Origin: Chiloscyllium plagiosum
Taxonomy: Eukaryota
NCBI RefSeq assembly: GCF_004010195.1
Contig: NC_057718.1
Location: 75,319,300-75,383,299 of the forward strand
DNA length: 64,000 nucleotides
Reading direction: 5' to 3'
The position numbers were made by a program, and so were the translations under genes. Under the pieces are notes generated by a model. The model ran no database searches. It was given only the letters and a program-made list of their open reading frames with translations, and was not told the origin of the DNA. Shown here one piece after another: positions 11,719-42,070 of the stretch; positions within the stretch are counted from its first letter, which is position 1; each line of letters opens with the position of its first letter.

Positions 11719-11926
11719 TATTGACTGAAAATACTATAGTTTGAGAACTTTAGGTAGGTCAATTTTTGTCCAATGTGGACAGGAGGGTTTCCTGATGCAG
11801 TATGTGGACATGCCAACAAGGGGCGAGGTTGGATTTGGTACTGGGTAATGAACCTGGCCAAGTGTTAGATTTGGAGGTAGGTGAGCACTTTGGTGATAGT
11901 GACCACAATTCTGTTACATTTACTTT

Positions 11927-12153
11927 TGTTAAAAATCACACAACACCAGGTTATAGTCCAACAGGTTTATTTGGAAGCTTTAGTTTTCGGAGCACCGCTC
12001 CTTCATCAGATGGTTGTGGCTGCACAACCACCTGATGAAGGAGCAGCGCTCTGAAAGCTAGTGCTTTCAAATAAACCTGTTGGACAATAACCTGGTGTTG
12101 TGTGATTTTTAACTTTGTACACCCCAGTCCAACACCGATACCTCCAAATCATG
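11927..12153. mobile_element. PLE-derived fold-back mini-element with hammerhead cores in both arms
   Basis: Inverted arms of about 90 bp (11928-12018 / 12023-12113), a 40-nt unpaired tail, and an 11-bp TSD acatttacttt (11916-11926, 12154-12164). Confidence 0.9.
12029..12063 (+). ncRNA. Minimal type I hammerhead ribozyme motif
   Basis: CAC-CTGATGA-A-GGAGC-AGC-GCTCT-GAAAG-CTA^GTG: stem I CAC/GTG, intact core, stem II, palindromic AGCT at helix III, NUH = CTA. Confidence 0.75.
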
Positions 12154-12647
12154 ACATTTACTTTAGTGATGGAAAGGGATAGGTATATAATGCAGGGCAA
12201 GAGTTACAATTATGATGCGCTTAGGCAAGATTTAGGATGCATAAGATGGGGAAGGAAACTGCAGGGGATGGGCGCAATTGAAATGTAGTGCTTATTCAAG
12301 GAACAGCTACTGCATGTCTTTGATAACTAGGCACCCGTCAGGCTGGGAGGACGTGGTTGAGTCAGGGAACCGTGGTTTACGAAGGAGGTTGAATGTCTTG
12401 CCAAGAGGTAAAAGGAGGCTTATGTTAAGATGAGACGTGAAGGCTCAGTTAGGGTGCTTGAGAGTTATAAGCTAGCCAGAAAAGACCTAAAGAGAGAACG
12501 AAGAAGAGCCAGGAGAGGGAATGAGAAGTTGTTGGCGGATAAGATCAAGGAAAACCCTAAGGCTTTCTATTGGTATATCAGGAATAAACGAATGACAAGA
12601 GTAAGATTAGGGCCAATCAAGGACAGTATTGGGAAGTTGTGCATAGA

Positions 12648-12806
12648 TTAGATTAGATTACCTACAGATTAGTTTACCTACAGTGTGGAAACAGGCCCTT
12701 CGGTCCAACAAGTCCACACCGACACGCCGAAGCGCAACCCACCCATACCCCTACACTTAGCCCTTCACCTAACACTACGGGCAATTTAGCATGGCCAATT
12801 CACCTG
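12648..12806 (-). mobile_element. 5'-truncated SINE
   Basis: (GATTA)n tail and SINE 3' body. TSD ataga at 12643-12647 and 12807-12811. Confidence 0.9.
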
Positions 12807-12944
12807 ATAGAGTCCAAGGAGATAGGAGAAGCACTAAATGAATATTATTCATCAGTATTCACACTGGAAAAAAAATGTTGTCGAGGAGAATACTGAGATA
12901 GAGGCTACTAGACCATTAGTAGCCTAGGCTACTAGGCTACTAGT

Positions 12945-13240
12945 GGGCAGCACGGTGGCACAGTGGTTAGCACTGCTCCCTCACAGCGCCAGAGAGCTGG
13001 GTTCAATTCCCGCCTCAGGCGACTCTCTGTGTGGAGTTTGCACATTCTCTCCGGGTGCTCTGGTTTCCTCCCACAGTCCAAAGATGTGCAGGTTAGGTGA
13101 ATTGACCACGCTAAATTGCCTGTAGTGTTAGGTGAAGGGGTAAATGTAGGAGAATGGGTCTGAGTGGATTGCGCTTCAGCGGGTTGGTGCAGACTTGTTA
13201 GGCCGAAAGGCCTGTTTCCACATAGTAAGTAATCTAATCT
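12945..13240 (+). mobile_element. SINE (HE1-like)
   Basis: gggcagcacggtggcacagtggttagc head, B box, (TAATC) tail. Confidence 0.95.
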
Positions 13241-15424
13241 AAAAAAAAATCACATGGAATTGAAGTTCACAGGAGAAGAGTTTAGCAATTCTGAAAAGTG
13301 TGAAAATAGAAAAGTCCCCTGGGCCGGATGGGATTTATCCTAGGATTCTCTGGGAAGCCTGGGAGGAGGTTGCAGAGCCTTTGGCTTTGATCTTTATGTC
13401 ACCATTGTCTACAGGAATAGTGCCAGAAGACTGGAAGATAGCAAATGTTAAGGGGAGTCAGGACAACCTTGGTAATTATAGACAATTGTGCCTTACTTCA
13501 GTTGTGGGTAAAGTGTTGGAAAAGGTTATAAAAGATAGGATTTATAATCACCTAGAAATTAATAAGTTGTTTAGAGATAGTCAACACTATTTTGTGATAG
13601 ATAGGTCATGCCTCACAAACGTTATTGAGTTCTTTGAGAAGATGACTAAACAGGTAGATGAGAGTAAAGGGGTTGATGTGGTGCATATGGATTTCAGTAA
13701 GGCGTTTGATAATGTTCCCCATGGTAGGCTATTGCACAAAATATGGAGGCATTAGATTGAGGGTGATTTAGTGGGTTGGATCAAAAGTTGGCTGGCTGAA
13801 AGAAGACAGAGGGTCATGTTTGTTGGGAAATGTTCATCCTGGATTTCAATGACTAGTGGTGTACTGCAAGGATCTGTTTTGGGGCCACTGCTGTTTGTTA
13901 TTTTTATAAATGACCCAGATGAGGGTGTAGAAGGATGGGTTAGTAAAATTTGTGGATGACACTAATGTCGGTGGAGTTGTGGACAGTGCCAAAAGATGTT
14001 GCAGGTTACAGAGGAACATAGATATGCTTAAGCGCTAGGCTGAGAGTTGGCAAATGGAACTTAATGTGGAAAAGTGTGAGGTGATTCACTTTGGAAGAAG
14101 CAACAGGAATGAAGAGTACTGGGCTAATGGTAAGATTCTTCACAGTGTAGATGAGCTGAGCGATCTTGGTGTCCATGTACATAGATCCCTGAAAGTAGCC
14201 ACTCAGGTTGATAGGATTGTTAAGAAGGCATACCGAGTGTTAGCTTTTATTGGAAGAGCGATTGGGTTTCAGAGCCACGAGGTCATGTTGCAGCTGTATA
14301 AAACTCTGGTGCAGTCGCACTTGGAGTACTGCATACAGTTCTGGTCACCACATAATAGGAAGGATGTGGAATCTTTGGAAAGGGTTCAGAGGTGATTTCC
14401 TAGGATGTTGCCTGGTATGGAGGGAAGTTCTTATGAGGAAAGGCTGATAGACTTGAGGCTGTTTTCGTTAGAGAGAAGAAGGTTGAGAGGTGACTTAATT
14501 GAGACATATAAGATAATCAGAGGGTTAGATAGGCTGGACAGGGAGAGCCCTTTTCCTCGGATGGTGATGGCTAGCACGAAGGGACATAGCTTTAAATTGA
14601 GGGGTGACAGATATAGGACAGATTTCAGAGGTAGTTTCTTTACTCAGTGAGTAGTAGGGGCATGGAATGCATTACCTGCAATAGTAGTAGACTCGCCAAC
14701 TTTACGGGCATTTAAAGGGTCATTGGATAAACATTTGGATGAAAATGGAATAGTGTAGAATAGATAGTCTTCAAATTGGTTCCACAGGTTGGCGAAACAT
14801 TGAGGGCCGAAGGGCCTGTACTACGCTGTAATGTTCTATGTTCTACGTTCTATGTCTTAAGAAGAATATCCAAAATGAAAAATTCTTTTTGCAAGGGAAA
14901 TATCGAAGCTGGGCTGCTCATTTTTGTGAATAAAAAGTTCATTTCATGACCCTCAGAGTAAGCAGATACTTTGTGATGCTGAACAAGAGATTTTCTCATA
15001 AGCTTCAAAAAACAGTGTGAGTACAGAATTCGTTCATTGTAAATCAATCCTTGTCACTACTTATTTAACCAGAATGGTTTATTGCAAGGTACATAATGCT
15101 GCCTCAGCCAATCCTCAAATGTCTAATTTAGTACCTATGCACACATTGAATTTAGATTTGTTCAATTGAAAGATAGGTTTCAATCTCTGATCCAAAACAG
15201 AAATTACTGGAAATATTTGATCAGTTTAGCAGCATATCTAGAGAAAGAACAAAGCTCACATTTTAGGTTGACAATCTCTCATTTGAACTCAACTCCATAA
15301 GGAAAACAGTCATGGGGATCATGATGTACAATTGCCTGCTCCCATTTGGAGGGATGCAGGTAGCACATATTGTTGGCAATCTACATTAAATGTACAGCTA
15401 AGTCTCAACAGCAAAAAGGGTTAA

Positions 15425-20359: not shown

Positions 20360-20455
20360 AAAATGAAGTTTGCTGCAAAAGCTCAGCAGGTCTGGCAATA
20401 CCTAAGGAGAGAAATCAGGGTTAATATTTCAGGTCTACTGACCCTTCCTCAGAAA
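20360..20455 (-). mobile_element. Short PLE terminal fragment
   Basis: aaagctcagcaggtctggca...gacccttcctcagaa, same family as 21657-21790 and 23802-23900. Confidence 0.7.
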
Positions 20456-21264: not shown

Positions 21265-21928
21265 CCTATATTTCATTTGTCTTCTTTACTGCCTGTCAGG
21301 CATCCAGGTCTTGTTGCACCTCCCCTTTTCCCAAGCTAGTGTCATTTGGATAATTATCTGCCTTCTTGATTTTGCTACCAGAGTGACTAACTTCATATTC
21401 ATCCAGTCTATACTTCACTTGCCATGTATTTTCCCACTCATTTGCTCAAATTGTGCCAATCACACCGAAGCATCTTTGCAGTTTTTTCACAGTTCATCGT
21501 CCCGTACAGCTTTATATTGCTTACAAAATTGAAGATATAACATTTAGTTCCCCCATCTAAATTATTAGTATACATTGTCAATAGCTGGGGTCCAAGCATT
21601 GATCTCTGCAGTACATACTGAGCCTCTTGCTCAGAATAGACTAATTTATCCCTACAGTAAAACAAAAAACTGCTGCGTTGGAAATCTAAAACAAAAACAG
21701 AAATAGCTAGACAAACGCAGCAGGTCTGGCACAATCTTTGAGTAGAAAGTAGAGTTAATATTTCAAGTTCAGTGACCCTTCTTCAGAACAAAGCACTATT
21801 TATTCCTAATCTTTGTTTCCTGTCTGACAATCAGTTGTCTATCCATGTCAGTGTACTACTGCCAATCCCATTTGTTTTCATTTTACATGCTAATGTCATA
21901 TGTGGGACCTTATCAAAAGCCTTCCATT
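21265..21928 (-). mobile_element. Decayed CR1 RT fragment with an embedded PLE terminal fragment (about 21657-21790)
   Basis: Minus-strand translations MLGPQLLTMYTNNLDGG and KAFDKVPH. Confidence 0.75.
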
Positions 21929-30974: not shown

Positions 30975-31187
30975 AACAACATTATGGATGGTGGAAATCT
31001 GAAATAAAAACAGAAAGTGTTGCTGAAGCCCAGTAGATCTGACAGCTTATATGGAAAGAGAAACAGAATTAATGTTTCAAGTTTGACATGACTCTTCTTC
31101 AGAACATGTTCCTGAAGCATTAACTCTATTTCTCTCTCCAAAGATGTTGTCAGGTCTGCTGAGACTCTCCAGCACTTGCTGTTTATA
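30975..31187. mobile_element. Older PLE-derived fold-back element
   Basis: aacagaaagtgttgctgaag..cagtagatctgacagc pairs imperfectly with gatgttgtcaggtctgctgagactctccagcacttgctgttt. Confidence 0.65.
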
Positions 31188-31976: not shown

Positions 31977-32360
31977 TTGCTCATTGCTCCTCACGAAAAT
32001 AGTCTAGAAATGCAGGTTAATGGGGTAATAGAGAGGGAGGATTTTTTTTTTGTTCCTTTGTCTCAAGACCACCAAAATAGACCATGTCATCAGACCCTCA
32101 GCTCTATTCCTGATGAAGGGCTTTTGCCCGAAACATTGATTTTCCTGCTCCTCAGATGCTGTCTGACCTGCTGTGCTTTTCCAGCACCACTCTAATCTAG
32201 ACTCTGGTTTCCAGCATCTGCAGTCCTTGTTTTTACCATGTCATCAGACCTAACCAGCCTGGATACAATTAGAATTGTGGGTCAGTGCTGTGTCCTGGGT
32301 GAAAGGGAACACCCAGCAGTGCAGGAAGAAGGTCAGTGATCTTTTGTGCTCTGCAAAAAT
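31977..32360 (+). pseudogene. Harbinger Myb/SANT-like DNA-binding ORF fossil, split by a PLE insertion
   Basis: Removing the insert and one TSD copy restores the frame: SLEMQVNGVIERED..RPCHQT*PAWIQLELWVSAVSWVKGNTQQCRKKVSDLLCSAK. Confidence 0.7.
32097..32234 (+). mobile_element. PLE 3'-terminal fragment with a hammerhead core
   Basis: CTGATGA-A-GGGC-TTTT-GCCC-GAAAC at 32110-32134. 16-bp TSD accatgtcatcagacc at 32081-32096 and 32235-32250. Confidence 0.9.
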
Positions 32361-40341: not shown

Positions 40342-40550
40342 GAGATGGAAATGTGTTGCTGGAGAAGCGCAGCAGGTCAGGCAGCATCTAGGGAACAGGA
40401 GAATCGACGTTTCGGGCATTAGCCCTTCTTCAGGAGAAAGTAAGGACTGCATATGTGGGAGATTAGCTGGAAAAGCACAGCCGGTCTAGGTCTGCCTTCT
40501 CCAGCAACACATTTCCATCTCTGATCTCCAGCATCTGCAGACCTCATTTT
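40342..40550. mobile_element. PLE-derived fold-back mini-element with an intact minus-strand hammerhead core
   Basis: 27-bp perfect inverted repeat (40341-40367 / 40496-40522), 28-nt tail, 15-bp TSD ctatccattagaaca (40327-40341, 40551-40565). Confidence 0.9.
40402..40435 (-). ncRNA. Minimal hammerhead ribozyme motif
   Basis: Minus strand: TC-CTGAAGA-A-GGGC-TAAT-GCCC-GAAAC-GTC^GA. Canonical GUC triplet and palindromic ACGT. Confidence 0.75.
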
Positions 40551-41502: not shown

Positions 41503-42070
41503 ATTGACAGGGGTGGAGGGTTTGAGCTATAGGGAGAGACTGAATAGACTGGAGCTATTTTTCCTGGAGCACCAGAGGCTGAGGGATGACCTTACAGAGG
41601 TTTATAAAAATCCTGAGGGAAATGGATAAGACAAATAGGCAAGGTCTTTTCCCCAATGTGGGGGAGTCCAAAACTAGAAGGCATAGGTTTAAGGTGAGAG
41701 GGGAAAGATTTAAAATGGACCTAACGGACAATGTTTTCATGCAGAGGGTGATGCATGTATGGATGATTTGGAGATGCCAGTGTTGGACTGGGGTATGCAA
41801 AGTTAAAAATCATACAACACCGGGTTATAGTCCAACAGGTTTATTTGGAAGCACTAGCTTTTTGTATGGAATGAGCTGCCAGAGAGAGTAGTGGAGACTG
41901 GTACAATTGCAACATTTAAAAGGTACTGGATGGGTATGTGAATAGGAAAGGTTTACAGGGATGTAGGCCAAATGCTGGCAGATGGGACCAGATTTATTCA
42001 GGATATCCGGCCAGCATGGATGAGTTGGACCGAAGGGTCTGTTTTTGTGCCATGACAGTATGACTCTATT
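41503..42070 (+). mobile_element. CR1 3' fragment with a PLE-end insertion at 41764-41862
   Basis: ORF 41586 (NRQGLFP..ESKTRRHRFKVRGERF). The insert is flanked by TSD tgtatgga (41756-41763, 41863-41870). Confidence 0.9.

What the first reader, a model, noticed from the sequence alone, without database searches (positions are those of the whole stretch)
11916..12164. Fold-back mini-retroelement carrying hammerhead ribozyme cores on both strands
Seen: a 227-bp non-coding insert in a CR1 with an 11-bp TSD, made of two inverted arms of about 90 bp, a 4-nt loop and a 40-nt one-sided tail. The right arm has a complete minimal hammerhead (CAC-CTGATGA-stem II-GAAAG-CTA^GTG). The left arm has one on the minus strand (CTGATGA-A-GGAGC-GGT-GCTCC-GAAA) with a mutated stem I/III. 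Known: Penelope-like elements carry minimal, dimer-acting hammerheads in their terminal repeats, and inverted-repeat copies with a short 3' tail occur. Inference: this is a non-autonomous unit reduced to ribozyme plus terminus. In a transcript, the long dsRNA hairpin would compete with and mask the ribozyme fold.
Basis: partly seen in the sequence, partly recalled or inferred. Interest (0 to 1): 0.75.

Follow-up and report, generated by a model that had tools for sequence, protein, structure and literature searches.

The report
Penelope stub copied twice from RNA
This 227-base hairpin is one of roughly 100,000 stubs of a known kind of jumping gene (Penelope-like) rather than a self-copying ribozyme element, and it was likely made when both cut DNA strands copied the front end of one RNA, which hints at how these poorly understood elements copy themselves.

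Summary
The anatomy is confirmed: 91-nt arms, 4-nt loop, 40-nt tail, 11-bp TSD, empty sites in host-LINE paralogues, and hammerhead cores on both strands. Both cores are mutated in this copy. The arms are the terminal repeat (pLTR) of an ORF-bearing, Neptune-like Penelope element, and the tail ends at the ORF's ATG. It is not a propagating family: 88 of 95 junctions differ, and each left arm matches its own right arm's subfamily. Inverted pLTR plus tail, and paired opposite-strand hammerheads, are published. The added value is mechanistic. Inner ends pile up at a TATA/initiator-predicted start with a cap-like extra G. RNA reads place the poly(A) site inside the pLTR, before the tail. Three U6 copies join exactly at the predicted ribozyme cut, and two of them do so in both arms. 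Best reading: both nicked strands primed on one RNA, ran off its 5' end, and were joined head to head, like paired strong-stop cDNAs. The scan reported this reading many times before, in this genome and others. I did not see the poly(A) mapping in the notes shown to me.

The parts
11916..11926 (+). left copy of the 11-bp target-site duplication
   Evidence: single copy in 11 of 11 host paralogues
11927..12018 (-). inverted, tail-less pLTR arm (R0 to R92, where R1 = 12023 on the other arm)
11978..12012 (-). degenerate hammerhead: core and stem II intact, G15.2 and the stem I 3' strand mutated
12019..12022 (.). head-to-head junction (GCTG); differs from copy to copy
12023..12113 (+). sense pLTR arm; starts one base before the predicted transcription start (A at 12024)
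12029..12063 (+). minimal type I hammerhead, predicted cut after 12060; pair 10.1-11.1 is G-U in this copy
   Evidence: U6 joins at the equivalent bond in L319-L321
12070..12075 (+). poly(A) signal AATAAA (family: ATTAAA 175, AATAAA 50 of 261 arms); family transcripts are polyadenylated at about 12085-12090
12114..12153 (+). 40-nt one-sided tail; its last three bases are the ATG of the PLE ORF
   Evidence: L211 ORF begins at this ATG
12154..12164 (+). right copy of the TSD; its first two bases also match the ORF continuation (microhomology)
11790..12640 (+). host LINE remnant (AP-endonuclease end onward; CR1-like, label recalled)

Best explanation
The insert is a promoter-less stub of a Neptune-like Penelope element, likely made in one insertion event when both nicked target strands primed reverse transcription on the front end of one element RNA and the two short cDNAs were joined head to head. 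Shown: the arm is the pLTR of an RT/GIY-YIG element; the tail ends at the ORF's ATG; the pLTR holds, in order, a TATA box, the hammerhead, a poly(A) signal that is used, and then the tail. Inferred: the mRNA starts at R2 (12024 equivalent) and ends at about R65 of the downstream pLTR, so it is terminally redundant. The two internal RT start sites (tail start and tail end, shown in vitro for the anole element) then occur near its 5' end. The enzyme makes a staggered cut about 11 bp wide. One strand primes at the tail end and gives the tailed arm; the other primes at the tail start and gives the tail-less arm. Both run off the capped 5' end after 90-130 nt, and end-joining fuses them. The ribozyme is a passenger in such copies. 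It likely cuts a minority of element RNAs in the germ line.
For: (1) PLE link: L191 runs from a GIY-YIG C-terminus through a 3'UTR into the arm and tail. L211 has two direct pLTRs 3.7 kb apart, with the ORF starting at the tail's ATG. RT with DKG and YIDD motifs, RVT_1 E 8e-10. (2) About 33 insertions per Mb in 1.15 Mb of evenly spaced sample, about 118,000 if extrapolated; 12,193 exact copies of a 31-mer. (3) TSD of 8 bp or more in 65 of 95, against 2 of 95 in the control. (4) 5' ends fall in R-2..R12 for 33 of 70 tail arms and 30 of 54 adjacent inverted arms; only 2 of each fall in R-15..R-3; binomial p about 1e-20, window chosen after looking. No upstream RNA hairpin or excess microhomology explains the edge. 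(5) TATAWA in 96 of 106 long arms, 74 of them 30 or 32 nt before R2, while the spacer differs between subfamilies. (6) G precedes R2 in 52 of 62 non-templated contexts among the first 100 of 1,168 matches, tallied by eye. (7) Poly(A) behind 12084-12090 in 574 reads and at the same place on L211 in 986 reads, with depth falling about tenfold beyond it; 0 of 261 genomic arms have an A-run there. (8) Short arms run on into the ORF start: 5 of 43 match five bases, against 0.05 expected. (9) Neither arm is systematically longer: tailed arm 22, equal 16, inverted arm 27. (10) L319 and L320 carry a rare U6-R39 join in both arms, with the longer U6 piece in the tail-less arm. (11) The anole PLE protein cuts and extends both strands and starts at two sites flanking the tail (PMC11167929).
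Against: The start site was not seen in RNA: the library was poly(A)-primed and no start pile-up was listed. The extra-G test was negative one base upstream (G 335, A 348, T 1155), which is where this copy's own G sits, and a partner arm can supply a G. In 6 of 66 insertions the arms disagree on a 2-nt indel, so some used two RNAs or slipped. L255 and L256 share a junction and a private variant despite different flanks, and L009 shares this copy's loop, so some stubs may have been re-mobilised. There is no general pile-up of ends at the ribozyme cut (3 of 17 and 3 of 16, p about 0.3). The U6 joins are only 3 loci, found with a targeted pattern; 0 of 20 top U6 copies joined this family. In the anole element the hammerhead was not needed for insertion in vitro. 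The breakpoint sample is mostly from one contig and needs an exact 31-mer, which favours young copies.
Confidence: 0.75

Rival explanations
1. A non-autonomous fold-back family: one master hairpin is transcribed and mobilised in trans by the PLE protein.
For: Thousands of near full-length matches with uniform outer ends. L255 and L256 share a junction with different flanks, and L009 shares the GCTG loop. pLTRs can mobilise cargo in trans (PMC3846280).
Against: 88 of 95 junction types differ. Left-left distance equals left-right distance; arms match their own partner's subfamily; only one column (loop II) changes majority between left and right arms. The four copies sharing one junction type use a 4-nt microhomology in two orientations. 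The stub has no TATA box.
Confidence: 0.07
2. Self-priming fold-back: one cDNA, or an antisense RNA, folds on itself and is copied to make the inverted arm (the hypothesis of PMC3846280).
For: It explains arm concordance, the mirrored U6 joins in principle, and junction microhomologies.
Against: Copying the tailed cDNA requires the tailed arm to be the longer one, but the tail-less arm is longer in 27 of 65 and in both U6 palindromes. A tail-less cDNA cannot template the tail. The inner ends match a sense-strand start, and 6 of 66 arm pairs are discordant.
Confidence: 0.1
3. Ordinary random 5' truncation plus the known inverted copy; the pile-up at R1-R10 has another cause, such as RT falling off after the ribozyme or an alignment edge.
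For: PLEs are heavily 5'-truncated (PMC8557442). Subfamilies diverge just upstream of R1, which could stop an alignment there.
Against: Seventeen reference arms from several subfamilies were used. Most breaks abut the inverted arm directly. The edge coincides with TATA +30 and an extra G. Folding just upstream is weak.
Confidence: 0.08

Closest known systems
EN+ Penelope-like insertions with an inverted 5'-truncated pLTR and a 30-40-bp tail (PMC8557442 Fig. 2 passage; Pen2a_Av in PMC3846280)
   Same: Head-to-head inverted pLTR, one-sided tail, TSD of about 9-13 bp, pLTR with TATA and initiator, tail reaching into the ORF start.
   Different: Here both arms are cut down to the transcribed part of the pLTR and no ORF lies between them; about 1e5 copies. 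Those papers explain the inversion by self-priming or leave it open.
Minimal hammerheads of metazoan PLEs (PMC4209133)
   Same: Core boxes, extra base between 9 and 10.1, palindromic 15-16 positions, short helix I. The paper already reports dual motifs 100-700 bp apart on opposite strands as truncated PLEs.
   Different: The two cores here are about 20 nt apart and both are mutated. That paper had no in vivo evidence of cleavage; the U6 joins are indirect evidence.
PAc (Poseidon of Anolis) in vitro mechanism (PMC11167929)
   Same: Two internal RT start sites that bound the tail; both target strands cut and extended.
   Different: Different clade. In PAc the tail lies more than 100 nt into the ORF, here it ends at the ATG. 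The main text does not discuss inverted copies, poly(A) or strand transfer.
Minus-strand strong-stop DNA of LTR elements (established knowledge, recalled)
   Same: U3-R-U5-like layout; priming near the 5' end of a terminally redundant RNA gives a short run-off cDNA.
   Different: Target-primed, with no tRNA primer and no integrase. A functional analogy only.
Non-LTR retrozymes (bioRxiv 10.64898/2026.07.22.740005)
   Same: Non-coding, PLE-derived, type I hammerhead.
   Different: Retrozymes are head-to-tail tandem repeats; this is a single head-to-head pair.

Membership tests
EN+ Penelope-like element (parent of the arm) | single ORF with PLE-type RT (DKG motif) | tested here: met
   ADKGG, YIDD, RVT_1 above cut-off in 3 of 6 ORF pieces; copies are broken and no intact ORF was read
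EN+ Penelope-like element (parent of the arm) | C-terminal GIY-YIG endonuclease with CCHH | tested here: met
   VY..C..C...YIG and two His in P0001; Atlas first hits GIY-YIG at 0.97, on 23-27% of members; Pfam scan blank
EN+ Penelope-like element (parent of the arm) | direct pLTRs flanking the ORF | tested here: met
   L211 2631-2763 and 6333-6465
EN+ Penelope-like element (parent of the arm) | inverted 5'-truncated copy, one-sided 30-40-bp tail, TSD | tested here: met
Neptune/Nematis clades | CX2-5CxxC linker before the GIY-YIG | tested here: met
   PCHGGRCKTC in P0001; definition from PMC8557442
Neptune clade | RT phylogeny | not tested
   no reference RT set on hand
minimal PLE hammerhead | core boxes, extra base after A9, palindromic helix III | tested here: met
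   stems paired 94-98% in 175 motifs (innermost stem II pair 77%) while loop II varies; a sibling family swaps AGCT for ACGT and the stem letters
minimal PLE hammerhead | G10.1-C11.1 pair in this copy | tested here: not met
   G-U in the right arm; the left arm keeps it but has lost G15.2 and stem I
minimal PLE hammerhead | self-cleavage as a dimer | not testable with these tools
   indirect only: 3 U6 joins at R39
non-autonomous propagating family (MITE- or SINE-like) | shared internal junction and arm-specific lineage across loci | tested here: not met
non-LTR retrozyme | head-to-tail tandem units each with a hammerhead | tested here: not met
   head-to-head single pair; definition

The most novel reading that the evidence does not exclude
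These Penelope elements replicate like LTR elements in disguise. The mRNA runs from R to R, the RT start sites exist only near its 5' end, and so every insertion begins as a strong-stop cDNA. To reach the ORF it must either jump to the 3' R or use an RNA circularised by the two R-borne hammerheads acting as an intramolecular dimer. The hairpin stubs are the pairs that failed to do so, and U6 joins record in vivo cutting.
Probability: 0.45. Interest if true: 0.75.

Novelty: new member of a known kind. Interest (0 to 1): 0.5.

Why it matters
The object itself is ordinary and dead. As a class, the stubs record the RNA ends used during insertion. They bear on two questions that the papers I read leave open: how PLE head-to-head inversions and partial tandems arise (PMC3846280, PMC11167929), and whether animal minimal hammerheads cut in vivo (PMC4209133). 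The mapped layout (start, hammerhead, poly(A) site, tail, ATG) makes both testable with the existing in vitro PLE assay and with CAGE.

Tried and rejected
Rfam: no hammerhead model matched. Breakpoint peak at the ribozyme cut: not found. Extra G before R1: not enriched; the G seen in the top BLAST hits was selection by the query. PDB sequence search with the RT piece: 0 hits. Pfam did not see the GIY-YIG. No RNA holder was listed for the locus; run X18 laid 0 reads, which is no test. A-to-I editing of this copy could not be judged because family reads collapse on it (24 of 1,665 were 99% alike or more). The marker-linkage table meant to separate jump from circle returned nothing because of a faulty expression and was not repeated, so that question stays open. 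U6 sample: 0 of 20 copies read (of 48 scored) joined this family; 2 of 20 began at the predicted cut of a sibling family. Earlier-finding look-up by sequence gave only unrelated phage notes. Rows dropped: L221 (duplicate of L219), L245 (N upstream), and one pattern match not fetched because it was already held as L176. Six long arms in the random set matched themselves as references, so their values beyond -700 only mean 'long'. Literature searches with no relevant prior description: Penelope-like + strong-stop, Penelope + pLTR + polyadenylation + template. Subscription papers, Repbase and Dfam were not searchable.

Full report
Coordinates: R1 = window 12023; hammerhead core starts at R10; predicted cut after R38 (12060); tail R92-R131.

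Observation. The structure is as described: 91-nt arms, 90% complementary, around a 4-nt loop, a 40-nt tail and an 11-bp TSD. Eleven of 11 paralogues of the host LINE hold the 11-mer once and no insert. Both hammerhead cores are present. The right one has G-U at 10.1-11.1 and the left has lost G15.2 and stem I. In 175 family motifs the stems pair in 94-98% of cases (innermost stem II pair 77%) while loop II varies. A sibling family in the window changes the stems and swaps the palindrome AGCT for ACGT. The hairpin is 45 kcal/mol more stable than the fold with the hammerhead enforced. Rfam has no matching model.

What it is part of. The first genome search gave 3,252 candidates. The 30 best loci all had the same outer ends but different centres. 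To avoid that selection I took 120 evenly spaced 10-kb stretches. They hold 38 insertion clusters in 1.15 Mb, about 118,000 if scaled to the genome. A 31-mer over the tail junction has 12,193 exact matches. Longer copies continue upstream into a CA-rich 3'UTR and an ORF. L191 runs from a GIY-YIG C-terminus with a CX4CxxC linker into the arm and tail. ORF pieces have the DKG and YIDD motifs and hit RVT_1. L211 has two direct pLTRs, and its ORF begins at the ATG that ends the tail. So the arm is the pLTR of an EN+ Penelope-like element, Neptune- or Nematis-like by its linker; phylogeny was not tested.

Not a propagating family. Among 95 paired insertions, 88 junction types differ, and 65 have a TSD of 8 bp or more against 2 in the control. 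Among 66 pairs, arms agree on a 2-nt indel in 60 (38 when shuffled) and on the poly(A)-signal variant in 58 (34 when shuffled). Left-left, right-right and left-right distances between loci are equal (0.102, 0.104, 0.105), and the distance within a locus is 0.085. Against this: L255 and L256 share a junction and a variant with different flanks, and L009 shares this copy's loop, so rare re-mobilisation is not excluded.

Where the arms stop. In 70 tail arms chosen only by the 31-mer, 33 end in R-2..R12 and 2 in R-15..R-3; for adjacent inverted arms the figures are 30 and 2 of 54; the random sample gives 23 and 1 of 63. There is no peak at the ribozyme cut. Long arms have TATAWA in 96 of 106 cases, mostly 30 or 32 nt before R2, across subfamilies whose spacer differs. 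The same test at R1 was negative. Upstream folding and microhomology do not explain the edge. I infer a capped start at R2; it was not observed directly.

Where the RNA ends. In run X17, 574 reads carry poly(A) behind 12084-12090, just after AATAAA at 12070. On L211, 986 reads do so after ATTAAA, and depth falls about tenfold beyond that point. Genomic arms have no A-run there (0 of 261), and the two main variants are both known poly(A) signals. These are family reads from one sample, and some may be host transcripts that use the signal. The poly(A) site lies before the tail, so an R-to-R mRNA has its tail only near the 5' end. In line with that, short arms run on into the ORF start far above chance.

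How the two arms arise. The anole PLE protein cuts and extends both strands and starts at two sites that bound the tail (PMC11167929). That predicts one tailed and one tail-less arm. Inverted arms end near R92 and tailed arms near R131. Neither arm is regularly longer (22, 16, 27), which argues against hairpin self-copying. Three loci join a U6 3' end exactly to R39, and a pattern allowing joins from about R23 to R51 found only an R39 join (1 match). In L319 and L320 both arms carry the join, and the tail-less arm has the longer U6 piece, which fits one rare RNA copied twice. The numbers are small, and 0 of 20 top U6 copies joined this family. Six of 66 discordant pairs suggest two RNAs in some cases.

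Shown and inferred. Shown: anatomy, PLE parentage, copy number, junction heterogeneity, breakpoint edge, poly(A) position, U6 joins. Inferred: start at R2, double priming, end-joining, in vivo cleavage. Open: whether long copies arise by a jump, a circle or read-through RNA.

Known. Inverted pLTR with tail is in PMC8557442 (passages and section 10) and PMC3846280 (abstract and passages), which also notes TATA plus initiator and proposes self-priming. Dual opposite-strand minimal hammerheads are in PMC4209133 (parts 1-2 of 4). Also read: PMC11167929 parts 1-2 of 4 and a term search; bioRxiv 10.64898/2026.07.22.740005 parts 1-2 of 5; passages of PMC2377424 and PMC6765202. No supplements were read; those of PMC11167929 and PMC4209133 may bear on inverted copies and on fish or shark motifs. 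Searches found no strong-stop or poly(A)-in-pLTR model.

Verdict. Interest 0.5, for the testable replication model rather than for this copy.

Noticed in passing
L303, L304, L307, L311, L314-L317: 8 of 20 U6 copies read are followed directly by the head of a tRNA-like SINE (the same SINE as at window 12946-13200; name HE1 recalled); L300 is followed by a tRNA-like sequence. U6-SINE chimeras look common here.
   Followed up: no
L299, L313: U6 3' end joined at the predicted hammerhead cut of a sibling PLE family (the family at window 32110, 40410, 55509).
   Followed up: partly
window 20427-20452, 21761-21786, 31075-31102, 32110-32133, 40410-40433, 55509-55532: Six more hammerhead-like cores from at least two other families; 9 core matches in the window against 3.1 expected.
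   Followed up: partly
window 41763-41861 and 62271-62400: Two more stubs of the same family: a solo tailed arm starting at R32, and a shorter hairpin without the ribozyme core.
   Followed up: partly
window 12648-13242: Two SINE-like copies in inverted orientation, with an 18-bp inverted end and a small internal palindrome at 12913-12946, nested in the same host LINE.
   Followed up: no
L086 2285-2821: The tailed arm at about R7 is joined directly to an internal 310-bp piece of the PLE ORF and then to the inverted arm: a likely template jump from the RNA 5' end.
   Followed up: partly
L255, L256: Two stubs 110 kb apart share a junction and a private variant but not their flanks: possible secondary mobilisation.
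   Followed up: no
L318: Overlapping direct and inverted U6 pieces at one locus.
   Followed up: no
The pLTR poly(A) signal is heavily used in single-cell RNA; scattered stubs may supply 3' ends to host transcripts.
   Followed up: no
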